From positions 1 to 46,430 of the forward strand of contig JAUVHW010000002.1 in assembly GCA_030593075.1 (NCBI GenBank): 46,430 nucleotides of DNA, read 5' to 3'. A program made the translations under genes and the position numbers. The notes beneath the pieces were generated by a model. The model had not been told where the DNA came from. It ran no database searches and was given only the letters and a program-made list of their open reading frames with translations. This document shows, one piece after another, positions 9,531 through 33,459 of this stretch. Within the stretch, counting starts at the first letter, position 1; the number at the start of each line of letters is the position of its first letter. The stretch comes from Ardenticatenales bacterium (GTDB lineage: Bacteria > Chloroflexota > Anaerolineae > Promineifilales > UBA4811).

Positions 9531-9555
9531 ACAGAGACGGCCCTTGCCCCAGCCT

Positions 9556-9605
9556 GTGCTGGCCCAGCATGTGTTGGCGCAGCACGTGCTGGCGCAGCAT
9601 GTGCC
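9556..9605. repeat. Tandem 15-nt palindromic repeat, about 3.3 copies
   Basis: GTGCTGGCCCAGCAT / GTGTTGGCGCAGCAC / GTGCTGGCGCAGCAT / GTGCC. Each unit is a 6-3-6 inverted repeat (GTGCTG..CAGCAC), and unit junctions form CAGCA(C/T)GTG(C/T)TG palindromes. Confidence 0.85.
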
Positions 9606-9631
9606 CGATGACCAGGGTTGCGCTTGTTGTT

Positions 9632-9660
9632 TTGACCCAATCCTGGCGGCAGGGTATAAT
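9632..9660 (+). promoter_or_regulatory. Sigma-70-type promoter of the Ser/Thr kinase gene
   Basis: TTGACC (9632-9637), a 17-nt spacer, then TATAAT (9655-9660). Followed by AAGGAGG and GGAGAAGG Shine-Dalgarno elements and the ATG at 9706. Confidence 0.6.
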
Positions 9661-9705
9661 CTGCACCCAGGCAAGAGTTTGCCAAGGAGGCCGGAGAAGG
9701 TACGT

Positions 9706-11730
9706 ATGGCAGAATCTCTCATCGGCAAGACAATCGGCAAATACCAGATCGTGGAACACCTGGGGCGCGGGGGAATGGCCGAGGTATACAAAGCCCATCA
9801 GCCAGCCCTGGACCGCTACGTCGCAATCAAGCTCATGCATTCCTTTCTCGCCGACGACAAGGACTTTCTCGGCCGGTTCCAGCGTGAGGCCAGAGCCGTC
9901 GCCAGCCTAAGACACGGCAACATCGTGCGCGTGTACGACTTTGACGTGGCAGACGGCGTTTACTACATGGTGATGGAGTTCATCGATGGTTACACGCTCA
10001 AGGCATTGCTTGAGGGACTCACGGCTAAGGACCAGAGAATGCCGCTCAGGGAAGCGCTCCGCATCACCGAGGATTTGGCCTCTGCTCTGGCGTACGCGGC
10101 CCGGCGGGACATGGTCCACCGGGACGTCAAACCGGCCAACGTGATGATAAACCGTGAGAATCAGGTGATTCTCACGGACTTTGGAATCGCCAAGATTCTG
10201 AGCGGCCCGCAATTCACCGCCAGCGGGGCCATGATCGGTACGCCTGCCTACATGTCCCCGGAGCAGGGGCTCGGAGAAGCAGGTGACGCCCGCAGCGACA
10301 TCTACTCCCTGGGCGTGATGCTTTTCGAGATGTCAACCGGCCGGCGCCCGTTCGATGCTGACACTCCCCTGGCTGTGGTCCTCAAGCACGTCAACGCCCC
10401 TATCCCGATTCCTAGTAGCATCAACCCCGACTTGCCGCCCGACGTGGAGCGGGTTATCCTGAAGGCCATCGCCAAGGAACCCGATGACCGGTATCAGACG
10501 GGCGGTGAGCTCGCAGAGCATCTGGCCATGATTAAGAGGGGAGCCTCTGTCCCCGAAACCGTGTTGGCTGCCAGGGGAGCGGGCGGCGTAATAGACCAGA
10601 AGGCCAGGACTGTAATCGGCGTTCCCTCTGCCACCGTCCAGGCACCGGTGGCACCGCCAACCCGGCGCGGAGGGTGGCCCGCTTGGCTCTGGCTTGCCGT
10701 CGGCGGCGCGGCCGTTGTGCTATTCCTGCTGGGTATCGCGGCCGTGTCTGGCCTCTCCGGTTTCCTGGGGTCGAGAACGCCGACTCCGGCAGTGGCGGGA
10801 GGGACCCCGCGGGCGACCGAGGCCGGACCAGCCTCGACGCCCGCCGGAACCCCTCAGCCAACGGCTACGCCGCTCGACCTGGTTGGTGCTGCGTCAACAG
10901 CCTTGGCGCAGCAGAACGCCACCCTCACCGCCCTGGCTCCTACTGCGTCTCCGACGCCTGTGGTGACCCATACTCCGTCACCCACGTTGACTCCTTCGCC
11001 GACGCCCACGCTGGCGTGCGAGCTTGGCTACGAGCTGATTGCCTATTTCACCTACGGCAACCCAAACAACTACAATAGCAGCCGGAACCAGACTCTGGCC
11101 CCTGTTGACCGACAGTTCTCGTTCACCGCCCGGCTTCTGAACCAGGGCACCTGTGCCTGGCCGGCCGGGACTCAGCTGGTTTTCATTGGCGGAGACGCGC
11201 TAGGGGCCGACGAGGAGATGACGGCCGATTCCGAGACCGAGGTCGGTGACACGGCCGAGTTCGATACTTCGATGACCTCGGGAAGCCAGACTGGGTTGTT
11301 CAGCAGCCACTGGGGGTTGCAGCTGCCGGACGGCACCGAGGTTGGCGACCCGCTTGAGATCAGGGTCCTTGTCTACGAGCCTGCCACGCCCACACCCACC
11401 GCCCCGCCGCAGCCAGTGGCTACGCCTACTTCTGAGCAGACCGGCCCCATCGATTTCAACTGGTTCATCAGCAGTTGCGAGTACATTGGAACCGAGTGGC
11501 GCTGCCTGATGACGGTTACTCCATTCGGGGGGATTGGCGAGCCCTACACCATGTGGGTCTTTGACACCGCGCAGGGCACCCGCTACTATGGCGGGAACCA
11601 GCAGTTCTGGGTGACTGCCCGCCGCTGCTCCCCGTGGATTCATGATATCAAGCTTCAGGACGATGGCGGGAACTCTATCACCAAGGGCGCTTACATCGAT
11701 CCCAATGCCTACTTTTCCTGCACGCCGTAG
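9706..11730 (+). CDS. Transmembrane Ser/Thr protein kinase (Hanks type) with a Cys-containing extracellular domain
   Basis: GRGGMAEVYKA (Gly loop plus Lys), HRDVKPANVMI, DFGIAK and GTPAYMSPEQ. One TM helix (WLWLAVGGAAVVLFLLGIAAV), a Pro/Thr linker, then about 240 aa of extracellular sequence. Start chosen at the ATG at 9706, downstream of the promoter. Confidence 0.9.
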   Translation: MAESLIGKTIGKYQIVEHLGRGGMAEVYKAHQPALDRYVAIKLMHSFLADDKDFLGRFQREARAVASLRHGNIVRVYDFDVADGVYYMVMEFIDGYTLKALLEGLTAKDQRMPLREALRITEDLASALAYAARRDMVHRDVKPANVMINRENQVILTDFGIAKILSGPQFTASGAMIGTPAYMSPEQGLGEAGDARSDIYSLGVMLFEMSTGRRPFDADTPLAVVLKHVNAPIPIPSSINPDLPPDVERVILKAIAKEPDDRYQTGGELAEHLAMIKRGASVPETVLAARGAGGVIDQKARTVIGVPSATVQAPVAPPTRRGGWPAWLWLAVGGAAVVLFLLGIAAVSGLSGFLGSRTPTPAVAGGTPRATEAGPASTPAGTPQPTATPLDLVGAASTALAQQNATLTALAPTASPTPVVTHTPSPTLTPSPTPTLACELGYELIAYFTYGNPNNYNSSRNQTLAPVDRQFSFTARLLNQGTCAWPAGTQLVFIGGDALGADEEMTADSETEVGDTAEFDTSMTSGSQTGLFSSHWGLQLPDGTEVGDPLEIRVLVYEPATPTPTAPPQPVATPTSEQTGPIDFNWFISSCEYIGTEWRCLMTVTPFGGIGEPYTMWVFDTAQGTRYYGGNQQFWVTARRCSPWIHDIKLQDDGGNSITKGAYIDPNAYFSCTP

Positions 11731-11838
11731 CGGTCCGTCAACCTTGGCTCTAGCGGGCACGGCCTCTCGTTCCTCTGCTGACGTGCCCGGCTCGGTTTGG
11801 CCGTCCCGTAGGCAGGGAGCCCTGCAAGCCAGAGGCTG

Positions 11839-12207
11839 GTAGCATAACCCCTTGAGGGCGTCGCGTGAGGGGACGTCGCGCGCGTCTAGGACGGGCGCAA
11901 GGCGCTATGCTACCGGTGGAAATCGTAGCATAACCCTTGAGGGCATCGCGTGAGGGCATGTCGCGCGCGTCCAGGACGGGCACAGGGCCTTATGCTACCG
12001 GTGGAAATCGCAGCATAACCCTTGTGGGCGTCGCGTGAGGGGACGTCGCACGCGTCCAGGACGGGCACAAGGCGTTATGCTACCGGTGGAAATCAAATCG
12101 TAGCATGACCCTTGTGGGCGTCACGCTAGGTCCTCTCTCTCGCACATCCGGAACGGGCACAAGGCCCCACGCTACCGGTGAAAGCCGTAGCATAGCCCCT
12201 CAGAGCG
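11839..12207. repeat. Tandem array of an ~86-bp hairpin-forming unit (4 full copies plus a partial fifth), non-coding
   Basis: Units at 11839-11924, 11925-12009, 12010-12099 and 12100-12186, with a partial unit from 12187. Consensus is roughly GTAGCATAACCCTTG(A/T)GGGCGTCGCGTGAGGGGACGTCGCGCGCGTCCAGGACGGGCACAAGGCGTTATGCTACCGGTGGAAATC. The arms GTAGCATAACCCTTGTG and CACAAGGCGTTATGCTAC are near-perfect inverted repeats. The unit length is not a multiple of 3. Confidence 0.9.
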
Positions 12208-12433
12208 TTGTGACCGAAACCTGACTCCAGGTCATTGGCCTGCCTGGAGCCGATTGCCGCGGCCGGTCGCAGAATAGGGCACGGATTGTGCACCCTGGTA
12301 GACTGTGGCAGAAGACTTGGCGCTCGCAGAAATGGGGACTCGCCTGCCAGGCTCTTGGACCTGGTGCAGGAGCATCACGCACCGCCGGAGCGGTACGGGT
12401 CCTGGCGAGTCGTGACAAGTACGTTCCTGGGTG

Positions 12434-12451
12434 CCGCTGAGCGCTCAGCGG
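12434..12451. promoter_or_regulatory. Perfect 18-bp palindrome upstream of the 12500 gene (candidate operator or hairpin)
   Basis: CCGCTGAGCGCTCAGCGG is a perfect palindrome. It ends 48 nt upstream of the ATG at 12500. Confidence 0.5.
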
Positions 12452-12499
12452 GCCATGCCACCACAGTAAGACGAGCACTGCGCGTGGGGTGAGTGTGGA

Positions 12500-13522
12500 A
12501 TGAGTGCCTACTTTGATCGCCGGCTCCTCGTTGGGCTTGCTGTCGGCATCCTCATAGGCTGGCTCATCATTGGGTGGGTGTTGTGGCCGGTTGAATGGGA
12601 AGACGCCACCCCCTCCCTACTTACCGAGTCCTTTCGCGCCGATTATGTCAAGATGACTGCCGATCTCTACGCCAGCACCACGAACGAGGAAGAGGCTAGA
12701 TACCGAATGCGAGATTGGCGAGGAGGGGCCAGCTACGCGTGCCAACTGGCGAACCTGGCGGTCGAGGGGTCTGACGAGCAGCAACGGCTTCTGAACCTGG
12801 CTCTGGCGGTAGCCCCCGGCGCCACGTGCGAGGAGCTGGCTGTGGCTGCCCCTGCCCAGGAGCGCCGGTCCTTCGCCGCCACCGCTGGCCCATTCCTTGC
12901 GGGCGGGCTCTTGGTTGTGGCCGTGTTGGTGGGCGTCTTTTTCGTCATCTCCCAGCGCGGTACGTCGGAGGGCGTCAAGGAACAAGTGGCGACCGGCGGC
13001 CGGTCGGCCCTGGCGGGAACGACTGGAGGTAGGACGATTCCACTGGCTCAGTTCCCCACCGAGTACAGGATTGGGGATGATGCCTATGATGACTCCTTCT
13101 CCATTGAAACCCCTGCTGGAGATTTCCTCGGTGAGTGTGGCCTGGGCATCTCGGAGACGATCGGCGTGGGCGATCCCAAGAGGGTCACTGCCTTTGAGAT
13201 CTGGCTCTTCGACAAGAATGACATCCGCACTGTAACCAAGGTGATCATGAGTGACCACGCGTATCATGACGCCGCGCTGAGGGCAAAGCTGGCCCCGAAG
13301 GGAGAGGCAGTACTGGCAGCACCCGGCGCAGTCATTGTTCTGGAGACAGCGGCCCTCATCATAAACGCGCGAATCGTCGAGATGGAGTACGGCACCGGCG
13401 AGATTCACGCTGAGAGCTTCTTTGGCCGCCTGGCGGTGGAGTTGGCCACTTGGGCGAAAGAAGATGGACTGCCGGCCGGTGCCAGGGTGCTCGACCAACA
13501 CGAGGACGAGCTTGTTCTCTGA
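12500..13522 (+). CDS. Hypothetical two-TM membrane protein with an uncharacterised C-terminal domain
   Basis: 340-aa ORF. TM helices LLVGLAVGILIGWLIIGWVLW and FLAGGLLVVAVLVGVFFVI. I do not recognise the ~170-aa C-terminal domain (FPTEYRIGDDAYDDSFSIE...). Confidence 0.6.
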   Translation: MSAYFDRRLLVGLAVGILIGWLIIGWVLWPVEWEDATPSLLTESFRADYVKMTADLYASTTNEEEARYRMRDWRGGASYACQLANLAVEGSDEQQRLLNLALAVAPGATCEELAVAAPAQERRSFAATAGPFLAGGLLVVAVLVGVFFVISQRGTSEGVKEQVATGGRSALAGTTGGRTIPLAQFPTEYRIGDDAYDDSFSIETPAGDFLGECGLGISETIGVGDPKRVTAFEIWLFDKNDIRTVTKVIMSDHAYHDAALRAKLAPKGEAVLAAPGAVIVLETAALIINARIVEMEYGTGEIHAESFFGRLAVELATWAKEDGLPAGARVLDQHEDELVL

Positions 13523-13621: not shown

Positions 13622-14200
13622 ATGTCAAGAAAACTAAAGAGCGCTGCAGTTGGCCTCTTGGCCTTGATTGTGATCTGGGTTATTGCGGTCCTTTTCTGGC
13701 CTGAACCGGCGGCAATGCGAGACGAACACAGTTCGGACTCGGCGATGCCGACCGCTCTGTTGACCGTAGAGACCCCTCCCTCGCCAGCATCCCAGCAGAT
13801 GGAGACGGCTGCACCGCGTCCGACCTTCACGCCCACGCCTGTTATTACTCCTACTCCCGCTCACACCCCCACCCCTACGCCCCGTCCGGACCTCATGCTG
13901 TACGTGCAGCACGAGGTCCAGTCAGGCGAGACGCTTCTGTCCATTGCCAAGCGGCACAACACATCTGCTGCTCTGCTGGCCGCTCATCTGACAGTGGACG
14001 ACATGGCGCTGGGCAGCCTCATAGCGATTCCTGTGCCGAACCCGGATGCCTGCCCCTCGCTGAAAGTGCACATGGTGGAACAGGGCGAGACGCTCTTTCG
14101 AATCTCCCAGCAGTACGGGGTGACCGTAGAGGCCCTCAAGTCGGCCAACGGGCTCACAGAGGACATCATCAGGGCTGGCGATCTGGTCTGCATTCCCTGA
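13622..14200 (+). CDS. Membrane-anchored protein with two LysM domains
   Basis: The ATG at 13622 gives MSRKLKSAAVGLLALIVIWVIAVLFW (signal anchor). A TPTP linker follows. Two LysM-like segments: YVQHEVQSGETLLSIAKRHN... and HMVEQGETLFRISQQYGVTVEALKSANGL. Confidence 0.8.
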   Translation: MSRKLKSAAVGLLALIVIWVIAVLFWPEPAAMRDEHSSDSAMPTALLTVETPPSPASQQMETAAPRPTFTPTPVITPTPAHTPTPTPRPDLMLYVQHEVQSGETLLSIAKRHNTSAALLAAHLTVDDMALGSLIAIPVPNPDACPSLKVHMVEQGETLFRISQQYGVTVEALKSANGLTEDIIRAGDLVCIP

Positions 14201-15110
14201 GCAGGCCCAGTACGGCTGGAGCGATATCGGGCAGACTGCCTATCTGGGCTGCCAGTTGCTCGTGATCCTGGCCCACAGCAACGGTGGGGACGGCGTTCAG
14301 GGTGTGGGTTCGCACTCCGAGGTCTTCGATGTTGCCGTGGTCGCTCGTGATGATGATGGAACCAGCCTCCCAGTCCCAAGTGTCCACTACTCCGGCTAGC
14401 ACCCTGTCGAATCTGTCTAGCGCTTCCACCGCCTGCCGGAACTCCTTTCGATGGCCTATGATGTCGGTGGGCCAATGCTCGAGAAAGACCAGGCTGTGGC
14501 TGCGGGCAACGGCGGCTAGCCGTTCCCCAGCCTCCCAAGGGCTCAGCACCGGCGTCTCTGGGCGGCCGAGCCGTTCGCGCCATCCCTCACCGGTAAAGTC
14601 TGGGCTCACCGCCCTCCCTGCCACAAGGTCCTCGTGGGTAAGCAGCCGAATGCCGGCTGCCCGGGCCGCCAGTGGGATGGCTGGCATGAGGCGGCGTCCA
14701 CTCTTGATGCCTTCAAAGAACTGCGGAGGGTACGGGTTGAGCAAGATAGCTGAGCCTCCCTCAGCCCGCGTCTGCGAAAACAGGTTACCGCTCCTGAGGA
14801 TAGATGCGATGGCAGGAGTCGGTTTGGGCCCGAAATGCCCGCCAACCTCAGCCGGGACGTTTCGGCCGGTCAGCAGAGCCGCCTGTCCGGTGGCGCTCTG
14901 CGGCCTGCCGGGTACGCCGAGGCAAGCGTCGGTGGGTGCCAATGAAGCCATTGGGCCGGTGACTCGCCCCCTTCCCGCCAGGAACCACCCCTCTCCCAGC
15001 AACTCGGTAAGAGTTGGCATGTGGGCGGCGCAGAAGGGGTTGCGCACGGCGTCCGCCTTGCCCAGCCCTACTCCGTCCAGGAAAATGAACAGTAGGTGCC
15101 TCGGACTCAT
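14169..15110 (-). CDS. Alkaline-phosphatase-superfamily metalloenzyme (iPGM/phosphopentomutase-like core)
   Basis: LLFIFLDGVGLG (metal-binding Asp), SATGQAALLTG, and IIITSDHGNIED (the DHG metal site typical of this superfamily). Start set at the ATG at 15110 (MSPRHLLFIF). The upstream 45 codons of the track ORF look non-homologous. The start is uncertain. Confidence 0.6.
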   Translation of the reverse strand: MSPRHLLFIFLDGVGLGKADAVRNPFCAAHMPTLTELLGEGWFLAGRGRVTGPMASLAPTDACLGVPGRPQSATGQAALLTGRNVPAEVGGHFGPKPTPAIASILRSGNLFSQTRAEGGSAILLNPYPPQFFEGIKSGRRLMPAIPLAARAAGIRLLTHEDLVAGRAVSPDFTGEGWRERLGRPETPVLSPWEAGERLAAVARSHSLVFLEHWPTDIIGHRKEFRQAVEALDRFDRVLAGVVDTWDWEAGSIIITSDHGNIEDLGVRTHTLNAVPTVAVGQDHEQLAAQIGSLPDIAPAVLGLLRECRPDRQP

Positions 15111-15243
15111 CTCGCCATTATACACCAGCACCTCCGCGGCGCCACGATTGCCCTTTTCAACCTCGCTAGTATACTTGGCCGAGCTGGGCGCCACCTGGTG
15201 TCCCGGCGGTGCTAGATTCATTGGGCAGAACTTCCGATTGCTC

Positions 15244-16302
15244 ATGAGAACTGCCGAGTTCGATTATTGCCTGCCGCCCGAGTACATCGCACAGGAGCCG
15301 GCCGTGCCTCGCGACAGCTCTAGGCTGATGGTCCTAGACCGCGAAACCGGCCGGGTCGAGCACTGTGTCTTTCGTGGCGTCGGCAGCTACCTGAGGGCCG
15401 GGGATTTGCTAGTACTGAACGACACCAGGGTGATACACGCGCGGCTCTACGCGAAGAAGACCGGCACCGGCGGCCGGGTCGAGATACTGTTGCTGGAGCA
15501 AAAGGGCTCCCTGAGCTGGTTGGCATTGGTCGGTGGCTCCCGTGTGCGCACAGGGACCTCACTGGAACTGCTGGACAAAGAGGGCCAAGCGAGCGGGGTG
15601 CAGGCGAAGATTCGGCGAGAGAGCGCCGGCGCGCAGCGGATTGTGGAGTTTGACCGGCCGAGTGATCAGTGGCTGTGGGAGCTGGGGCATCTTCCGCTTC
15701 CCCCCTACATCCGAGGGTATTCGGGTGATCCGGAGCGCTATCAGACTGTGTTCTCGCGACACGAGGGCAGCGCAGCGGCCACCACGGCCGGGCTCCACTA
15801 CACTCCCGACCTGCTGGAGAACCTGCGCGCGATGGGTGTCAGCATTGGCTATGTCACCCTGAGAATCGGCCTGGACACCTTCAAGCCGATCACGGAGCAG
15901 GACATCTCCCAACACCCAATTCACACCGAGTGGGCACGGCTGAACACAGAGACCGCCCGGCAGGTCAACGAGACAAAGCTGGCGGGCGGCCGAGTAGTGG
16001 CTGTTGGCACAACGGTGGTGCGGGTGCTGGAGACAGCTGCCCTCAGGATGGTCTGCGGCGACAGTGGACCCGGTGAGCGTCCGTGCTGTGCCTTTGAGGG
16101 TCCTACGGACCTCTACATCACGCCCGGCTTTCGTTTCCGCGCTGTAGATGCCATGGTGACCAATTTCCACCTGCCGAGGAGCACCTTACTGGTTCTGGTG
16201 GCTGCCTTTGCTGGCCTACATCAGGTCAAGGATGCCTATCGAATCGCCATCGACCATCGGTATCGGTTCTACAGTTTTGGCGATGCGATGTTGATATTGT
16301 AG
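15244..16302 (+). CDS. queA: S-adenosylmethionine:tRNA ribosyltransferase-isomerase
   Basis: MRTAEFDYCLPPEYIAQEPAVPRDSSRLMVL is the canonical QueA N-terminus, and PLPPYI and GTTVVRVLE are present. The track ORF (from 14284) is an antisense-shadow extension. Confidence 0.9.
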   Translation: MRTAEFDYCLPPEYIAQEPAVPRDSSRLMVLDRETGRVEHCVFRGVGSYLRAGDLLVLNDTRVIHARLYAKKTGTGGRVEILLLEQKGSLSWLALVGGSRVRTGTSLELLDKEGQASGVQAKIRRESAGAQRIVEFDRPSDQWLWELGHLPLPPYIRGYSGDPERYQTVFSRHEGSAAATTAGLHYTPDLLENLRAMGVSIGYVTLRIGLDTFKPITEQDISQHPIHTEWARLNTETARQVNETKLAGGRVVAVGTTVVRVLETAALRMVCGDSGPGERPCCAFEGPTDLYITPGFRFRAVDAMVTNFHLPRSTLLVLVAAFAGLHQVKDAYRIAIDHRYRFYSFGDAMLIL

Positions 16303-27987: not shown

Positions 27988-28232
27988 GACTACTGTGCGG
28001 AGCCTGACGTGGAGCACTGTCTTGGTCGGCGCTATCGGACAGGTCTGTGGCTTGGGGGGCGTAGCCTAGATGGAGCAGCGCACCGAGACCTACTCCATCG
28101 GGGACCAACCCCGCGCGCCAGCCGAGAGCCGCGATGTGCCTCAAGGCGCCGAGCATACTGACTCTTGTCTCTAGCACAGCAGAGGGACCAGCCGTCACGG
28201 TGGCGGGGCCACCGGATGCTCGCCTGGCGAGT

Positions 28233-28261
28233 TTGGCTGCCCTGCCCGAACGTGCTACAAT
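28233..28261 (+). promoter_or_regulatory. Promoter of the microcompartment operon
   Basis: TTGGCT (28233-28238), a 17-nt spacer ending in TGC (extended -10), then TACAAT (28256-28261). Followed by GGAGAGAG (28287-28294) and the TTG start at 28303. Confidence 0.55.
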
Positions 28262-28302
28262 TGCGCCCTGCCCTCTGGAGCGAGACGGAGAGAGTCAGAA
28301 CA

Positions 28303-29049
28303 TTGGATCAGGAAGAGGTCCGTGAGATGGTGCGGCGCGTCGTGCACCGCACCCTGAATGTACCGTACAGCCCGTCTGCGCAGGCTGCCCGGCCTCTGGT
28401 CACAGAGGCCGATGTGCGGGCAGTGCCGGTGGGCAGCCAGCTCTCGGTCCCCAAGGGGGCACTGGTCACCCCGCTTGCCCGCCAGGTTGCCCTCGAGAGG
28501 AAGGTGTCGCTCAACCAGGAGACGCTGCCTCCGGCGCCCTCTGTCGCTGGTGAACCCTGCTCTGAGCGCCGCCCGGACAGCGGCCGGACCGTCGCTCTAG
28601 GCTCAGATCATGGAGGATACCAGCTCAAGGCGGTGCTGGCGGGCTACTTGGAAGAGCTGGGCTATCCAGTAATAGACTGCGGTACTGACAGCACTGCCTC
28701 GGTAGACTATCCGGATTTTGCCCTTGCCGTGGCGAGGCTGGTGGCTCGGGCGCAGGCCTGGCGCGGCATCGTTGTTGACGGCGCAGGGATTGGCTCCTGC
28801 ATGGCTGCCAACAAGGTGCCTGGAGTGCGCGCCGCCATGTGCTACGACCAGGCGACGGCCGTCAACAGCCGCGAGCACAATGATGCCAACGTGCTGACCC
28901 TGGGTGCTGGCCTGATCGGAGCCAACCTGGCCCGGCAGATTGTTAGAACCTGGCTAGAGACGCCGGCCGGGGGCGAGCGGCACGCGCGGCGCGTGGGCAA
29001 GATCATGGACATCGAGCGCCGTTTCCTCAGAGATGTTTCCAGGGGATAA
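28303..29049 (+). CDS. rpiB: Ribose-5-phosphate isomerase B family enzyme with a ~95-aa N-terminal extension (EP-like helix plus conserved module)
   Basis: Core motifs LGSDHGGYQLK, GAGIGSCMAANKVPGVRAA and REHNDANVLTLGA. Start placed at the TTG at 28303 because the predicted promoter lies inside the longer track ORF (28165) and an RBS precedes 28303. The ATG at 28327 is an alternative. Confidence 0.85.
   Translation: MDQEEVREMVRRVVHRTLNVPYSPSAQAARPLVTEADVRAVPVGSQLSVPKGALVTPLARQVALERKVSLNQETLPPAPSVAGEPCSERRPDSGRTVALGSDHGGYQLKAVLAGYLEELGYPVIDCGTDSTASVDYPDFALAVARLVARAQAWRGIVVDGAGIGSCMAANKVPGVRAAMCYDQATAVNSREHNDANVLTLGAGLIGANLARQIVRTWLETPAGGERHARRVGKIMDIERRFLRDVSRG
28396..28512 (+). other. Conserved N-terminal module (copy 1) shared with the class II aldolase
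   Basis: LVTEADVRAVPVGSQLSVPKGALVTPLARQVALERKVSL. 30 of 39 residues are identical to aldolase residues 11-49. Confidence 0.9.
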
Positions 29050-29052
29050 AGC

Positions 29053-29916
29053 GTGAAGAAACTGGACGAGGCGAGGGTCGAGCGCATCATCGAAGAGGTC
29101 ACAAGGCAGGTGCTGCTCGTGATGGAAGAGACCGAGGCAGGCGCAGACCCGGCCGCTGCAGAGCCTATTTCAGCCCACAACTATGTGGACCGAGTCAAGC
29201 CGGTTGTCAACGCCGGCGCGGACCGCCTGGCCAGCACGCTGGGCATCATGCCCACCGACGGCAGCGTGCGTCACATGATCGATCACACCCTGCTCAAGCC
29301 AGATGCGACGCCCGATCAGGTCGCCCAGCTGTGCTTCGAGGCGCGCAAGCACGGTTTTGCCGCCGTGTGTGTCAACCCGGCTCACGTCGAGCTTTGCAGC
29401 CAGCTCCTCAAAGGCAGTGATGTGCTGGTCTGCACTGTTGTGGGCTTTCCTCTGGGCGCCACCTCTACTGAGGCCAAGGTCTTTGAGGCTCAAAAGGCAA
29501 TTCAGGACGGCGCTGCCGAAGTGGACATGGTGGTCAACGTGGGAGCGCTCAAATCCCGCGACATTGGGCTGGTGGAGCGCGACATCGCCTCCCTGGCCCG
29601 GACTTGCCACGCCGGTAACGCTGTTCTCAAGGTGATCATTGAGGCGGCGCTGCTCACCGACGAGGAAAAAGTCATCGCCTGCCAGCTAGCCAAGGTGGCG
29701 GGTGCCAATTATGTCAAGACTTCTACCGGTTTTGGCCCTGGTGGCGCTACTCCTGAAGATGTTGCGCTCATGCGGCGCGTGGTCGGACCCAGCATGGGAG
29801 TCAAGGCAGCTGGCGGCATTCGGACCTACGAGGACGCAACTAGGATGATCGCAGCGGGCGCCACCAGGATAGGCGCCAGCGCCAGTGTGAGAATCATGCA
29901 GGGGGCGCCGGGCTAG
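29053..29916 (+). CDS. deoC: Deoxyribose-phosphate aldolase with a ~70-aa N-terminal extension (EP-like helix)
   Basis: [27 protein letters not shown] and YVKTSTGF (Schiff-base Lys region). N-terminus [27 protein letters not shown] start 4 nt after the rpiB stop. Confidence 0.9.
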
Positions 29917-29953
29917 GAGCAGCCGGAACCTCCATTGCCTCAGGAGAGCGCGA

Positions 29954-30592
29954 ATGTCAGTGGACCTGCGTACTTATGTCTTTCTCGACAGTCTGCAGCC
30001 GCAACACGCCGGCTTTCTCGGCACAGTGGCGCGCGGCTTCCTGCCGCTGCCAAATGACACCTCGCTATGGGTGGAGATCTCTCCCGGAATCGAGATCAAC
30101 CGCATCACCGACATTGCCCTCAAGGCGACCCGTGTTCGCCCCGGGATGCAGATTGTGGAGCGGCTGTTTGGCCTGCTGGAGGTGCACCATGAGGAGCAGG
30201 CCGAGGTGCGGGCGGCTGGTGCGGCGATCCTGGAGGCCCTGGGCGTCGAAGAGTCGGACCGCATCAAGCCCCGGGTGGTCTCCAGCCAGGTCATCCGCCA
30301 CGTAGACGCCCATCAGGTGCAGCTGATCAACCGCATGCGGCACGGGCACATGTTGCTGGCAGGACAGACTCTGTATGTTCTGGAGGTCGAACCGGCCGGA
30401 TATGCAGCGCTGGCAGCCAATGAGGCGGAAAAGGCTGCTCGTATCAACATCCTGGAGGTTCGCGCCTTTGGCAGCTTTGGGCGCGTCTACCTGGGCGGTG
30501 AAGAGAGGGATATCATGGCTGGCTATGGCGCGGCCGTGGCTGCCATCGAAGCTGTGAGCGGGCGCATGGTAGAGACCCGGCGCCGCGACTAG
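29954..30592 (+). CDS. BMC-T shell protein, CcmP/CsoS1D-like tandem (permuted) BMC domains
   Basis: [26 protein letters not shown]...[20 protein letters not shown] and [36 protein letters not shown] closely follow the CcmP sequence as I recall it. 212 aa, i.e. two BMC folds. Confidence 0.8.
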
Positions 30593-30637
30593 TCTTACTG
30601 GAGAACGAGTGCAAACCCCACTTGTCAGGAGGATACC

Positions 30638-30931
30638 ATGACCGATGCACTTGGAATGATCGAGACCAAGAGCTTCCCGGCTATGGTCGAGGCTGCCGAC
30701 GCTATGGTCAAGGCAGCCAAGGTCGAGTTGGTGAGCTACGAAAAGACGGGCGGAGGCCAGGTGACCGCAGTCGTGCGCGGTGACGTGGCGGCCGTCAAGG
30801 CGGCCGTAGAGGCAGGCGCACGCGGAGCCGAGAGGGTTGGAGAGGTAGTTGCCATCCACGTCATCCCGCGGCCGCACGCCAACGTGGACGTGACTCTTCC
30901 GCTGGGCCGCACACCGGCCGAAGGCAAGTAG
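30638..30931 (+). CDS. BMC-H hexameric shell protein (PduA/EutM/CcmK-like)
   Basis: [57 protein letters not shown] is the canonical PF00936 BMC-domain sequence. 97 aa. Confidence 0.95.
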
Positions 30932-30983
30932 CCGCCCTCCAGGCGCAAGGGCAGGACCCGACTGCGCGCCGGGGGCGGGAGCG

Positions 30984-31006
30984 ATGCGTGGGTCCTTCCC
31001 ACGCAT
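30984..31006 (+). other. Intra-operon stem-loop directly after the BMC-H gene
   Basis: Perfect 9-bp stem ATGCGTGGG/CCCACGCAT with loop TCCTT, followed by TTTGCCGTTACTT (short, interrupted U tract). Confidence 0.6.
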
Positions 31007-31039
31007 TTGCCGTTACTTGCACCTTGAACGGAGTTCTCT

Positions 31040-31339
31040 ATGCTGCTAGGAAGAGTAGTGGGTACGCTGGTCGCCACCCGCAAAGAGCCGTCGCTGGGGG
31101 GGCTCAAGTTCCTGGTGCTCAAGCAACTCGACATTGAGGGGCAGGAGACAGGCGGCTATCGGGTGGCGGCCGACGCCGTGGGAGCTGGCCTTGGAGAGGT
31201 GGTGCTCTATGCCACCGGCAGCGCCGCGCGCCAGACCAAGCTGACGGACCGCCGACCCTGCGACGCCGTGATCATGGCCATCGTGGACACCGTGGAGGTG
31301 GACGGCGTGGTCAAGTACGAGAAGGCTGAGGCCGATTGA
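31040..31339 (+). CDS. BMC-P pentameric vertex protein (EutN/CcmL family), paralog 1
   Basis: [15 protein letters not shown]...[10 protein letters not shown]...[22 protein letters not shown] is the typical PF03319 pattern. 99 aa. Confidence 0.9.
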
Positions 31340-32811
31340 TGATGGACGATGCCCGCATCGAAGCCATCATCCAGGAGGTGATGGATGAGCTGAACCTGGG
31401 CGACCGGCCGCGGCATGGTCCGTCGCCCCAGCCACTGCGCCCCGCCACGCTCGCTGAGCTTGCGCCTGCCCCCCAGCTGCACCACGGCGACAATCTGTTT
31501 CCGGATGTCGAAAGCGCGGTTGCGGCCGCCCGCCGCGCCTACCTGCAGCTGGCGGACCTTCCGCTGACGTTGCGCGAGCGCATGATCGCCCAGATCCGCC
31601 GCGTGATGCGGGAGAACGCGCAGCTCCTGGCGCACGAAGCCTGGCGCGAGACGGGGATGGGCCGCTACGAGGACAAGATCCAGAAGAACTTGCTCAACGC
31701 CAACAAGGCGCCCGGCACCGAGATCCTGGACCCGACCGCCTGGAGTGGGGACGACGGCCTGACTCTGGTCGAGTACGCACCCTATGGCGTGATTGGGTCG
31801 ATTATCCCCAGCACCAATCCCACCTCCACCGTCATCTGCAATGTCATTTCCATGGTCGCGGCCGGCAACGCCGTGGTATTCAATGCCCACCCAGGCGCGC
31901 GCGGCTGCTCCAACCACACCGTGCAGCTGGTGAACGAGGCCATCGTCCAGGTAGGCGGCCCGCCCAACCTGGTCTGCGCACTGGCCGAACCGACCATAGA
32001 GACCGCCCAGCAGATCATGCGCCACCCCGATGTGGGGTTGCTGGCGGTCACAGGCGGGGCAGCTGTGGTGCAGGCGGCGATGCAGAGCGGTAAACGCGCG
32101 GTCTGCGCCGGCCCGGGCAATCCTCCGGCCGTGGTGGATGAGACGGCCGATCTGCAGCAGGCAGGGCGAGACATCGTGCTGGGTGCCTCCTTTGACAACA
32201 ACGTCATTTGCATCGACGAAAAAGAGATCTTTGCGGTGGACAGCATTGCCGACGATCTGAAGCGGTCCATGTGCAGCAACGGAGCCCTCGAGATCAGCTC
32301 CCGGCAGCTCGATCGCCTCTCCCAGTCGATCTTTGACCAGGTTCCGCCGGCCGGGCAGCATGGCGCCATGAACAAGGCCTTCATAGGCAAGAATGCGAGC
32401 CTACTGCTCCAGGAGATCGGCATTGAGGTCGGGGAGGAGGTACGGCTGATATTGGTGGAAGTAGAGCCGGATCACCCGCTGGTACTGTCGGAGCAGATGA
32501 TGCCCATTGTGCCGCTGGTCCGCGTTCGCGATGCTGACCAGGCCATCGATCTGGCAAAGAAGGCAGAGCATGGTTTTCGGCACACGGCCGTGATGCACTC
32601 CAAGCACCTGGACCATCTGAGCCGCATGGCGCGCGAGATGGATTGCAGCATTTTTGTCAAGAACGCTCCTTCCTATGCTGGCGTTGGATATCGCGGCGAG
32701 GGTTTTTGCTCCTTTACGATTGCCAGCGCCACCGGCGAAGGGCTGACCAACCCTATCAGCTTCAGCCGCATCCGCCGCTGCACTCTTAAGGACTCCTTCA
32801 GGATCGTCTGA
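31339..32811 (+). CDS. CoA-acylating aldehyde dehydrogenase (PduP/EutE-like) with an N-terminal EP-like helix
   Basis: CAGPGNPPAVVDETAD and FDNNVICIDEKE (catalytic Cys context) are typical of BMC-associated acylating AldDH. N-terminus [21 protein letters not shown]. The start overlaps the stop of the preceding gene. ATG at 31339 or 31342. Confidence 0.9.
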   Translation: MMDDARIEAIIQEVMDELNLGDRPRHGPSPQPLRPATLAELAPAPQLHHGDNLFPDVESAVAAARRAYLQLADLPLTLRERMIAQIRRVMRENAQLLAHEAWRETGMGRYEDKIQKNLLNANKAPGTEILDPTAWSGDDGLTLVEYAPYGVIGSIIPSTNPTSTVICNVISMVAAGNAVVFNAHPGARGCSNHTVQLVNEAIVQVGGPPNLVCALAEPTIETAQQIMRHPDVGLLAVTGGAAVVQAAMQSGKRAVCAGPGNPPAVVDETADLQQAGRDIVLGASFDNNVICIDEKEIFAVDSIADDLKRSMCSNGALEISSRQLDRLSQSIFDQVPPAGQHGAMNKAFIGKNASLLLQEIGIEVGEEVRLILVEVEPDHPLVLSEQMMPIVPLVRVRDADQAIDLAKKAEHGFRHTAVMHSKHLDHLSRMAREMDCSIFVKNAPSYAGVGYRGEGFCSFTIASATGEGLTNPISFSRIRRCTLKDSFRIV

Positions 32812-32868
32812 GGGCCCGCGGACGGGTCTGACTCCAGGTTCTGGCACCTGAGCGGGATGTTATGAGAG

Positions 32869-33459
32869 ATGGTTGAGCCAGCGCTGGTACTGGTAGAGCT
32901 GAACAGTATCGCGGCCGGCATCGAGACGGCCGACGCCATGGTCAAGCGCGCGCCGATTGACCTGATCAAGGCTGGCACGGTGCAGCCGGGCAAGTACCTG
33001 GTACTGATTGGGGGGCTAGTGGCTGACGTCGAAGAGTCGCTGGCTGCCGGCCGCCAAGTCGGTGGCCCGGCTGTGGTAGACACCGTCTATCTGCCCCAGG
33101 TGCACCCCGAGGTGGTCGAGGCCGTCGCGGGGGGGCGGGTACCGCAGGCGACCGACGCCGTGGGAGTGATAGAGACGACCACCGTCGCGGCCGCCATCCA
33201 CGCGGCCGACGCAGGTGTCAAGGGGGCCGAGGTACGACTGCTGGAGGTACGGCTGGCGGACGGGCTGGGCGGCAAGGGCATTGTGCTCTTCTCCGGCCTG
33301 GTGGCCGATGTGGAGGCCGCGGTTCGGATCGGTGTCGGGGCGCTGGAGCGGCCAGAGCTCCTGGTGAGGCAGGTGGTCATCCCCCAGCTGCACCCCGAGA
33401 TGTGGGAGAACGTCGCTGACGCCACCCGCTTCCGCAGCCGGGTGATGGGCAACCTATGA
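32869..33459 (+). CDS. BMC-T shell protein, PduT-like tandem BMC domains, cysteine-free
   Basis: LVLVELNSIAAGIETADAMVKRAP...VQPGKYLVLIGG and VGVIETTTVAAAIHAADAGVKGAEV...GKGIVLFSG...IPQLHPEMW parallel PduT. The translation contains no Cys. Confidence 0.85.
   Translation: MVEPALVLVELNSIAAGIETADAMVKRAPIDLIKAGTVQPGKYLVLIGGLVADVEESLAAGRQVGGPAVVDTVYLPQVHPEVVEAVAGGRVPQATDAVGVIETTTVAAAIHAADAGVKGAEVRLLEVRLADGLGGKGIVLFSGLVADVEAAVRIGVGALERPELLVRQVVIPQLHPEMWENVADATRFRSRVMGNL

What the first reader, a model, noticed from the sequence alone, without database searches (positions are those of the whole stretch)
11839..12207. Tandem array of ~86-bp long-hairpin units in a 770-nt non-coding gap
Four full copies and a partial fifth of one unit lie head to tail, with no unique spacers. 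Copies 1-3 are near-identical by eye. Copy 4 keeps the flanks but has a replaced centre (TCACGCTAGGTCCTCTCTCTCGCACATCC). Each unit has terminal inverted arms (GTAGCATAACCCTTGTG ... CACAAGGCGTTATGCTAC, with one bulged G) enclosing a GC-rich core with an internal direct repeat CGTCGCG x2. Units are joined by a CCGGTGGAAATC linker. The period is not divisible by 3 and no credible ORF spans the array. It matches no CRISPR, tRNA or terminator architecture that I know. Possibilities are a tandemly duplicated structured sRNA, a REP/BIME-like element recognised by a hairpin-binding (RAYT/IS200-type) enzyme, or a protein-binding array.
Basis: seen in the sequence. Interest (0 to 1): 0.65.

Follow-up and report, generated by a model that had tools for sequence, protein, structure and literature searches.

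The report
Intergenic tandem array of hairpin repeats
A real, species-specific block of head-to-tail ~85-bp hairpin-forming DNA units lies between two conserved genes of an uncultured marine-sediment Anaerolineae bacterium, and it looks like an ordinary palindromic minisatellite of the REP/BIME kind, not a new RNA gene or defence system.

Summary
The array is real. There are four full units with starts at 11839, 11925, 12010 and 12100, and a decayed fifth at 12187. Each unit has two inverted ~25-nt arms with GTAG...CTAC ends. The same array occurs in at least 16 metagenome runs from about nine studies, so it is not an assembly artefact. Contig depths suggest the window undercounts the units by at least one.

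It sits in a lineage-specific ~560-bp insertion between the stop codon of a Ser/Thr kinase gene and the conserved promoter and leader of the next gene. Four of the five relatives that keep this gene pair have gaps of only 129-161 bp, and none of the six related loci examined carries the unit.

No copy was found elsewhere in the 46-kb window. Nothing matched in Rfam, species-representative genomes, JGI metagenomes, IMG/VR, phages or plasmids. Logan contigs do hint at one diverged second locus in the same genome.

Stem changes mostly break pairs (10 broken cells, 1 compensated, 1 wobble). No promoter or terminator consensus was found, and no RNA data cover this organism.

Best reading: a locally amplified palindromic element with BIME-2/REPIN-like architecture. 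It is probably transcribed as the kinase 3' UTR, where it would act as a hairpin barrier or attenuator, or it is neutral. Strict REP membership is not met. Interest is low to moderate.

The parts
11839..11924 (.). Unit 1: arms 11838-11862 and 11890-11914, 27-nt centre, then the linker CCGGTGGAAATC
   Evidence: inverted pair I2: 25 nt, 80% complementary. RNA fold is -42.8 kcal/mol (+) and -37.5 (-), z about -4.
11925..12009 (.). Unit 2, whose stem is weakened by four mismatches in the window's version
   Evidence: 89% identical to unit 1. Fold z is -1.7 and -1.1. Most other strains have A at 11985, which restores one pair.
12010..12099 (.). Unit 3, with head GCAGCAT and a linker lengthened by a 5-nt AAATC duplication
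   Evidence: Fold is -36.8 and -37.6 kcal/mol, z -3.2 and -4.3. A variant with five changes in the centre is common in other runs.
12100..12186 (.). Unit 4, an older copy: the arms are kept and the centre has diverged
   Evidence: (62% identical to unit 1) and alignment A2. It holds the only compensated pair of the stem, A-U to G-C.
12187..12270 (.). Unit 5, a decayed copy: only the head GTAGCATAGCCCCT is recognisable, and it has its own small hairpin at 12223-12251
   Evidence: (family D2), alignment A1, and the weak Rfam hairpin hit at 12223-12251.
11731..11838 (+). Unique lead-in of 108 nt between the kinase stop codon and unit 1; part of the lineage-specific insertion
   Evidence: It has no counterpart in the relatives' gaps. 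Its fold is no better than shuffles.
12276..12499 (+). Promoter-like site (TGgTAGACT) and 5' leader of the downstream gene, homologous to the whole short gap of the relatives
   Evidence: Alignment A3, gap sequences, and my own hexamer scan.
9544..11730 (+). Upstream gene: Ser/Thr protein kinase with a C-terminal NBR1-type Ig domain; the likely true start is ATG 9707
   Evidence: Pfam, NCBIfam and the sequence.
12500..13522 (+). Downstream gene: a conserved Anaerolineae membrane protein of unknown function, 340 aa
   Evidence: There are 2713 homologues and no Pfam or NCBIfam family. Synteny with the kinase gene is kept in five relatives.

Best explanation
This is a locally amplified palindromic DNA element: a minisatellite whose unit is a long hairpin.

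Origin (inferred). One ~85-bp element with 25-nt inverted arms and GTAG...CTAC ends came to lie just after the kinase stop codon. Together with its linker it was then duplicated stepwise by unequal recombination or replication slippage. This gave a run of alternating inverted arms separated by two alternating spacers: a variable 27-33-nt centre and a conserved 11-16-nt linker. That is the layout of E. coli BIME-2 clusters and of tandemly reiterated REP dimers. The oldest copies (units 5 and 4) lie at the right end and the youngest at the left end.

Effect (inferred, not shown). No terminator consensus separates the kinase ORF from the array, so the array is probably transcribed as the 3' UTR of the kinase mRNA. 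There the stable hairpins (-31 to -43 kcal/mol) would block 3'-5' exonucleases and damp read-through into the next gene's promoter and leader, as shown for the REP325 cluster in E. coli. It may equally be close to neutral.

It is not a trans-acting RNA gene array, a CRISPR array or an antitoxin RNA array.
For: Anatomy. Units lie head to tail and the arms pair either within a unit or across the linker. Base composition matches the host genome (overall G+C).

Lineage-specific insertion. Five relatives keep the kinase gene next to the 340-aa gene. Their gaps are 129, 142, 144 and 161 bp, and 428 bp in L007. The short gaps consist of the promoter and leader alone. None of the six related loci holds the unit.

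Permissive site. L007 has acquired unrelated long palindromes at the same place.

Decay, not constraint. In the 21-pair stem, 12 pairs never vary and 7 depart only by broken cells (10 cells). One pair is compensated and one is a wobble. Covariation is not above shuffles (132 of 500). Units 2 and 4 fold no better than shuffles.

Plasticity between strains. A 15-nt deletion lies exactly between the two CGTCGCG direct repeats in runs X8 and X15. Unit variants are present, and the junction contig has 1.5-2.4 times the flank depth.

Persistence. The array is present in at least 16 runs from about nine studies dated 2015-2025.

Not a known RNA or mobile element. There is no Rfam family and no match in phages or plasmids.

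Precedents from papers. BIME-2 occurs as tandem copies that are well conserved within a locus and vary in number between strains (PMC3333891). [quoted passage not shown] REP325 acts both as a terminator and as an mRNA stabiliser between co-directional genes (bioRxiv 10.64898/2026.03.23.713779).
Against: - No transcript data exist, so the 3' UTR role is pure inference.
- The arms are not stem-loops on their own, and the unit is not visibly dispersed. The REP/RAYT analogy is therefore architectural only.
- The arms and linker are more conserved than the centre, which could also reflect a sequence-specific ligand.
- The arm stem is more stable on the - strand in all four units. This is a weak hint of a - strand RNA: 4 of 5 transition mismatches favour it, which is not significant.
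- The array has been kept in all strains seen, so it may not be neutral.
Confidence: 0.55

Rival explanations
1. A tandem array of small structured RNA genes, possibly on the - strand. Each unit would give a ~80-90-nt hairpin RNA made from its own promoter or cut out of a precursor.
For: Units 1 and 3 form very stable hairpins. The arm stem is more stable on the - strand in all four units because the A-C mismatches of the + strand become G-U. Each junction with a CGTAGCA head reads TGCTACGAT on the - strand, a weak extended -10-like motif; my relaxed scan flagged one such site at 12124.
Against: No sigma-70-type promoter or intrinsic terminator was found on either strand by the standard scan. 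There is no Rfam match. There is no covariation and most stem changes break pairs. Units 2 and 4 fold no better than shuffles. One strain deletes 15 nt of the centre. The unit is absent from all relatives examined. The strand asymmetry rests on about five substitutions.
Confidence: 0.12
2. A DNA-level protein-binding array. The inverted 7-25-bp arm ends flanking the conserved 11-nt linker (ATGCTAC-N11-GTAGCAT), repeated every ~85 bp (about eight helical turns), would bind a dimeric regulator, a nucleoid protein or gyrase. This would set local topology or insulate the two genes.
For: The linker and the arm ends are the best conserved parts of the unit, while the centre drifts. The period keeps the sites on one face of the helix; this is an inference from the spacing. 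BIMEs bind IHF, Pol I and gyrase (PMC3333891).
Against: No candidate binding protein is encoded nearby; the window holds housekeeping genes only. The array lies upstream of, not over, the conserved promoter, and relatives do without it. Nothing tested here speaks directly for binding.
Confidence: 0.1
3. A true REPIN/RAYT-type (or MITE-type) mobile element: one cluster of a family that a Y1 HUH transposase, encoded elsewhere in the genome, copies around as single-stranded hairpins.
For: The unit has GTAG...CTAC ends, two inverted arms and a ~77-nt long hairpin, as in REP doublets (PMC3116915 and PMC3337134 as listed). Logan contigs carry 28-38-nt diverged arm copies in foreign flanks. Their depth equals that of the window's flanks in runs X5, X6 and X8, which suggests a second locus in the same genome. 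GTAG repeats are known in Chloroflexi.
Against: No other copy exists in 46 kb that contains about 35 intergenic regions. Summed contig depth over the array is only a few-fold the flank depth, so there are not tens of identical copies. The arms lack their own stem-loop, and GTAG is paired rather than free. No Y1 transposase gene is in the window. Exact-pattern scans of species-representative genomes, JGI metagenomes and IMG/VR gave chance hits only.
Confidence: 0.12
4. An assembly artefact: a falsely expanded or chimeric repeat.
For: All short-read contigs break inside the array, and the copy number cannot be read from them.
Against: Unit-to-unit junctions and unit-to-flank junctions are recovered independently in many runs from different studies and years. 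Depth indicates more copies than the window shows, not fewer.
Confidence: 0.02
5. An array of recombination sites of the integron attC type, without cassettes. The hairpin has AAC/GTT near its base, a bulge and an internal loop.
For: GCATAAC...GTTATGC resembles the attC core sites RYYYAAC/GTTRRRY with one mismatch in each. The stem has a bulged base and a 2x2 internal loop (read directly from the sequence).
Against: No integrase gene and no cassettes are in the window. Adjacent attC sites only 11 nt apart are not a known arrangement, to my knowledge. No attC model was available, so this rests on resemblance alone.
Confidence: 0.03

Closest known systems
E. coli BIME-2 clusters (tandem REP/iREP pairs), for example REP325 between yjdM and yjdN
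   Same: - Alternating inverted ~25-35-nt arms tagged GTAG/CTAC, with two alternating short linkers.
- Several tandem copies that are well conserved within one locus.
- A position between co-directional genes, downstream of the first.
- Unit content, and probably number, that varies between strains.
- Hairpins that can form in two registers.
   Different: - Each E. coli REP is itself an imperfect palindrome with a free 5' GTAG. Here the arms have no stem-loop of their own and GTAG pairs with CTAC.
- E. coli has about 600 dispersed REPs and a RAYT gene. Here only this locus is seen, plus perhaps one diverged copy, and no RAYT gene could be looked for beyond 46 kb.
REPINs (REP doublets forming hairpins) of Pseudomonas, and the clustered GTAG-23 repeats of Thermomicrobium roseum (Chloroflexi)
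   Same: - A long hairpin of about 80-110 nt made of two inverted arms with GTAG at the outside.
[quoted passage not shown]
   Different: - REPIN populations number tens to hundreds of copies per genome and are tied to a single RAYT gene. Neither was seen here.
- I could not compare sequences with GTAG-23, because its consensus is given only in a figure that was not held.
Bacterial intergenic minisatellites (VNTRs such as mycobacterial MIRUs) and MITEs amplified in place
   Same: - Head-to-tail units of 40-100 bp in an intergenic region of a co-directional gene pair.
- Species-specific, with a gradient of divergence along the array and polymorphism between strains.
- A slippage deletion between short direct repeats.
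- MITE-like size and 25-nt terminal inverted repeats.
   Different: - MIRUs are dispersed at about 40 loci and are not long hairpins.
- MITEs are dispersed and flanked by target-site duplications, which are not recognisable here.
Type III toxin-antitoxin RNA arrays (ToxI) and CRISPR arrays
   Same: A tandem array of short units ending in a partial or degenerate copy, lying upstream of a gene.
   Different: - ToxI units are about 36 nt and lie directly before a ToxN/AbiQ-type gene. Here the period is 85 nt, a conserved promoter and leader lie between the array and the gene, and the gene exists without any array in relatives.
- CRISPR arrays need unique spacers, and there are none here.

Membership tests
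REP/BIME (GTAG-tagged repetitive extragenic palindromes) | Each REP is a 20-40-nt imperfect palindrome (stem of 6-13 bp) with an unpaired GTAG at its foot | tested here: not met
   The arms are ~25 nt and start with GTAG, but they have at most a 3-4-bp CCC(T)/(A)GGG self-pairing. GTAG pairs with the CTAC of the opposite arm (sequence; folds). The definition is taken from PMC3733652 and PMC3333891.
REP/BIME (GTAG-tagged repetitive extragenic palindromes) | BIME layout: REPs in alternating orientation, regularly spaced, with alternating linkers, in tandem copies | tested here: met
   Nine arms alternate in orientation. They are separated in turn by a 27-33-nt centre and an 11-16-nt linker.
REP/BIME (GTAG-tagged repetitive extragenic palindromes) | High copy number, dispersed over many intergenic regions (usually more than 100 per genome) | tested here: not met
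   No copy lies outside the array in the 46-kb window. Contig depth over the array is only a few-fold the flank depth. Only one diverged second locus is hinted at. The rest of the genome was not available.
REP/BIME (GTAG-tagged repetitive extragenic palindromes) | A cognate RAYT (Y1 HUH transposase) gene flanked by the repeats | not testable with these tools
   None lies among the genes of the window. The genome beyond the window could not be retrieved.
Bacterial minisatellite / VNTR | Head-to-tail repeats of a 10-100-bp unit without unique spacers, in non-coding DNA | tested here: met
   TRF reports period 85, 90% matches, score 426. Four units plus a decayed fifth are present. There is no ORF with a family hit.
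Bacterial minisatellite / VNTR | Unit number or content differs between strains | tested here: inconclusive
   Content differs: there are unit variants and a 15-nt deletion. The junction contig has 1.5-2.4 times the flank depth, which suggests at least one extra unit. Short-read contigs cannot count units.
MITE | A 70-300-bp element with 15-30-bp terminal inverted repeats, target-site duplications and dispersed copies | tested here: inconclusive
   Size and inverted repeats fit. No target-site duplication is recognisable at the array ends. There are no dispersed copies in the window, and a possible second locus exists.
CRISPR array | 24-48-bp repeats separated by unique spacers of similar size, usually with cas genes | tested here: not met
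   Units abut one another. The centre and linker are themselves repeated. No cas-like domains are in the window.
Type III toxin-antitoxin (ToxI-like RNA array) | A tandem ~34-40-nt repeat array immediately upstream of a ToxN/AbiQ-type endoribonuclease gene | tested here: not met
   The period is 85 nt. About 290 nt holding a conserved promoter and leader separate the array from the gene. The gene has no family hit and occurs without an array in all relatives.
Known structured RNA families (Rfam 15) | A match at or above a family's gathering score | tested here: not met
   The window has no hit at gathering score. The best sub-threshold hit is a eukaryotic microRNA hairpin model at 27.8 bits against a gathering score of 100, which merely detects the junction hairpin.
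Integron attC sites | R''/R' core sites RYYYAAC/GTTRRRY, an L box with extrahelical bases, cassettes between sites, and intI nearby or a cluster of attC sites | not tested
   This rests only on an eye comparison: GCATAAC/GTTATGC has one mismatch per core. No attC model was available. No integrase gene or cassette is in the window.

The most novel reading that the evidence does not exclude
The array is the visible tip of a hairpin-element system in Chloroflexota that has not been described. One form would be a REPIN-like family in which the whole ~77-nt GTAG...CTAC hairpin, and not a short REP, is the unit copied by a Y1 transposase encoded elsewhere, and which grows as polar tandem blocks at a few loci. 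The other form would be a set of - strand hairpin sRNA genes that are duplicated in tandem.
Probability: 0.12. Interest if true: 0.45.

Novelty: new member of a known kind. Interest (0 to 1): 0.22.

Why it matters
As it stands, this documents an ordinary class of bacterial repeat (a palindromic minisatellite or BIME-like cluster) in an uncultured, widely distributed marine-sediment Anaerolineae species.

It has three practical uses:
- It is a warning that short-read assemblies of this locus break or collapse here.
- It could serve as a strain-typing (VNTR) marker for this lineage.
- It is a natural test case for whether hairpin arrays inserted between co-directional genes act as 3' UTR stabilisers or attenuators outside Proteobacteria.

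If a cognate Y1 transposase or discrete transcripts were found, it would extend REPIN-type elements or tandem sRNA arrays to Chloroflexota.

Tried and rejected
- Rfam, at gathering score on the window and on six relatives' loci, and at E-value up to 10 on the locus: nothing relevant.
- tRNA and tmRNA scan: none.
- Promoter and terminator consensus scan: none on either strand. My relaxed hexamer scan gave only the downstream gene's promoter-like site and one weak - strand site.
- Exact-pattern scans for the unit in species-representative genomes, JGI metagenomes and IMG/VR: only chance hits inside unrelated genes.
- BLAST of the whole 570-bp insertion against phages and plasmids: no match.
- nhmmer profile of the four units against the window and 16 loci (187 kb): only the array itself.
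- Metatranscriptomes from the cold-seep study: they do not cover this organism at all, not even its flanking genes, so they say nothing about transcription.
- Covariation analysis: four sequences give no power, and the result is not above shuffles.
- Extending beyond the window through its edge genes: those proteins are not on record.
- Protein-coding reading: the period is not a multiple of three, and the ORFs on the array have no family.
- ToxI-like, CRISPR-like and attC-like readings were considered and set aside; see the membership table.

Full report
**1. Observation**

The repeat is there and is far beyond chance.
- Tandem Repeats Finder reports 11839-12094 with period 85, 3.0 copies, 90% matches and score 426. 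It is by far the strongest repeat in the window.
- The repeat finder extends this to four units in register (100, 89, 88 and 62% identity to the first) and five heads at 11839, 11925, 12010, 12100 and 12187.
- The head motif GTAGCATAACCCTTG occurs six times within three mismatches. All six lie inside the array, against 0.5 expected; none of 100 shuffles reached six.
- Each unit has two inverted arms of ~25 nt around a 27-nt centre.
- On my 21-pair stem, 88% of cells are paired, against 24-39% when the partners are slid.
- Units 1 and 3 fold much better than shuffles on both strands (z -3.2 to -4.3). Units 2 and 4 do not (z -0.1 to -1.9).
- The gap between the flanking ORFs is 769 nt.

- The extra base in the 3' arm is a C on the + strand.
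- Unit 4 has a diverged centre, not a wholly replaced one.
- Unit 5 is a decayed unit.
- The 3' arm of one unit pairs with the 5' arm of the next across the linker just as well as arms pair within a unit (-34.6 kcal/mol, z -4.3). The array is best described as alternating inverted arms with two alternating spacers.

**2. Is it an artefact?**

No. The k-mer index finds the array together with its flanks in at least 16 metagenome runs. They come from about nine studies of cold-seep, marine-sediment, subsurface and seawater samples dated 2015-2025. Contigs from these runs reproduce unit-to-unit and unit-to-flank junctions independently.

All short-read contigs break inside the array, so the copy number in the window is not secure.
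- The 39-nt junction contig 11991-12029, present once in the window, has 1.5-2.4 times the depth of the flanks in X1, X3 and X4.
- Further unit variants sit at single-copy depth.
- The real array is therefore probably at least one unit longer, or it differs between co-existing strains.
- Runs X8 and X15 carry a 15-nt deletion at 11859, exactly between the two CGTCGCG direct repeats. That is a slippage signature.

**3. Context**

The window is an ordinary chromosomal stretch of an uncultured Chloroflexota (Anaerolineae/Ardenticatenales-like) bacterium with 64% G+C. The taxon follows from the names that sources give to the homologues. The genes include MetRS, ETF, QueA, Der, CdaA, PolA, an OTCase-family carbamoyltransferase, TIM, two-component proteins and a microcompartment-type cluster. 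There is no transposase, integrase, cas gene or Y1 enzyme.

The array lies between a Ser/Thr kinase gene (stop codon ends at 11730) and a conserved 340-aa membrane protein gene (start at 12500). Both are on the + strand. That protein has 2713 homologues, the nearest only 63% identical.

Five relatives keep the order kinase, then 340-aa gene, then (LysM), then QueA. Their gaps are 129, 142, 144 and 161 bp, and 428 bp in L007. In a sixth locus, L006, a different gene lies upstream and the gap is 367 bp.

The short gaps consist of a promoter (TTGTAC-N17-TGgTAAAAT in L015) and a conserved leader ending in GGTGAGGG-N5-ATG. The window's equivalent is about 12276-12499. The ~560 bp from 11731 to about 12290, which holds the array, is therefore an insertion specific to this lineage, placed between the kinase stop codon and the next gene's promoter. 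None of the relatives' loci contains the unit. L007 has picked up two unrelated long palindromes at the same site, so this spot tolerates such elements.

**4. Distribution of the unit**

Nothing like it occurs elsewhere in the 46-kb window. Nothing was found in one genome per GTDB species, in JGI metagenome contigs or in IMG/VR; exact-pattern scans gave chance hits only. Phage and plasmid collections gave no match.

Logan contigs from X1, X2, X5, X6 and X8 do hold 28-38-nt diverged copies (83-87% identical) of the 3' arms of units 3 and 4.
- The two copies lie 227 nt apart in foreign flanks.
- Their depth equals that of the window's flanks: X5 8.7 against 10-11, X6 5.3 against 5.0-5.4, X8 4.8 and 3.2 against 4.6-4.8.
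- This points to one further, older locus in the same genome.

**5. RNA or DNA?**

No known RNA family matches. No promoter or terminator consensus was found on either strand.

The four units give no covariation signal.
- Twelve pairs never vary and seven depart only by broken cells (10 cells in all).
- One pair is compensated (A-U to G-C in unit 4) and one is a wobble.
- The covariation score is reached by 132 of 500 shuffles.
- Changes mostly break the stem. This fits an inherited palindrome that is decaying better than a structure held by selection, although most other strains repair one mismatch of unit 2 (A at 11985).

The arm stem is more stable on the - strand in all four units, because the A-C mismatches of the + strand become G-U. 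This rests on about five substitutions and is not significant.

The only metatranscriptomes linked to these samples do not cover the organism at all, so transcription is untested.

**6. Explanation**

The most likely account is a locally amplified palindromic element.
- A hairpin element of ~85 bp with GTAG...CTAC ends was inserted, or arose, behind the kinase gene. It was then duplicated with its linker by unequal recombination or slippage.
- The gradient of divergence (units 5 and 4 old, units 1-3 about 90% alike) fits stepwise growth towards the kinase gene.
- The layout equals BIME-2 clusters: REP and inverted REP with short linkers, in tandem copies that are conserved within a locus and variable in number between strains (PMC3333891).
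- The same paper reports GTAG-tagged repeats in Chloroflexi. [quoted passage not shown]

As to effect, no terminator consensus lies before the array. It is therefore probably transcribed with the kinase mRNA. Its hairpins would then protect the 3' end and damp read-through into the next gene, as shown for REP325 between yjdM and yjdN (bioRxiv 10.64898/2026.03.23.713779). That step is inferred. A near-neutral repeat is equally compatible with the data.

**7. Membership and novelty**

It works like a BIME, but it is not shown to be a REP.
- The arms are not stem-loops of their own.
- GTAG is paired, not free.
- The unit is not dispersed in what can be seen.
- A RAYT gene could not be looked for beyond the window.

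It does meet the definition of an intergenic minisatellite. CRISPR, ToxI-type and Rfam memberships fail. attC was not testable.

I therefore file it as a new member of a known kind (a palindromic intergenic tandem repeat) and give it low to moderate interest. The most novel reading still open is a REPIN-like or tandem-sRNA system in Chloroflexota, at about 0.12.

Noticed in passing
window 9545-9604 (with 9655-9660 and 9707): Four tandem 15-bp palindromic boxes (CCAGCAYGTGCTGG-like; TRF period 15, 3.8 copies) lie about 50-110 nt upstream of a perfect TATAAT hexamer. The likely true kinase start is ATG 9707, preceded by AAGGAGG. This looks like an operator array for a regulator. The 728-aa ORF call from TTG 9544 is over-extended across it.
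   Followed up: partly
window 12276-12499; L015 3859-4003; L007 2895-3042; L006 4860-5003; L016 3857-4003; L005 4872-5003: A conserved promoter and structured 5' leader precede the 340-aa membrane-protein gene across Anaerolineae (TGGTAAAAT ... GGGGAACTCACCTGG ... GGTGAGGG-N5-ATG). CTCACC can pair with GGTGAG at the ribosome-binding site, which suggests a sequestering leader. There is no Rfam match.
   Followed up: partly
L007 2612-2920: A relative carries two unrelated long palindromic (MITE-like) elements at the same intergenic site between the kinase gene and the 340-aa gene. The site has therefore acquired hairpin elements independently.
   Followed up: no
Logan contigs of runs X1, X2, X5, X6 and X8, laid at window 12048-12085 and 12153-12188: Diverged copies of the 3' arms of units 3 and 4 lie 227 nt apart in foreign GC-rich flanks that contain GCGGCCGG motifs. 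Their depth equals that of the window's single-copy flanks. This is probably a second, older locus of the same repeat in the same genome.
   Followed up: partly
window 14169-16302: The 672-aa ORF 14284-16302 is an over-call. Only its C-terminal ~350 aa are QueA. A metalloenzyme-superfamily gene on the - strand (14169-15245) occupies the rest, as in the relatives.
   Followed up: partly
window 28165-33459: RpiB, a DeoC-family aldolase, an aldehyde dehydrogenase and a BMC-domain shell protein lie together. This is a bacterial-microcompartment-type cluster in an Anaerolineae genome.
   Followed up: no
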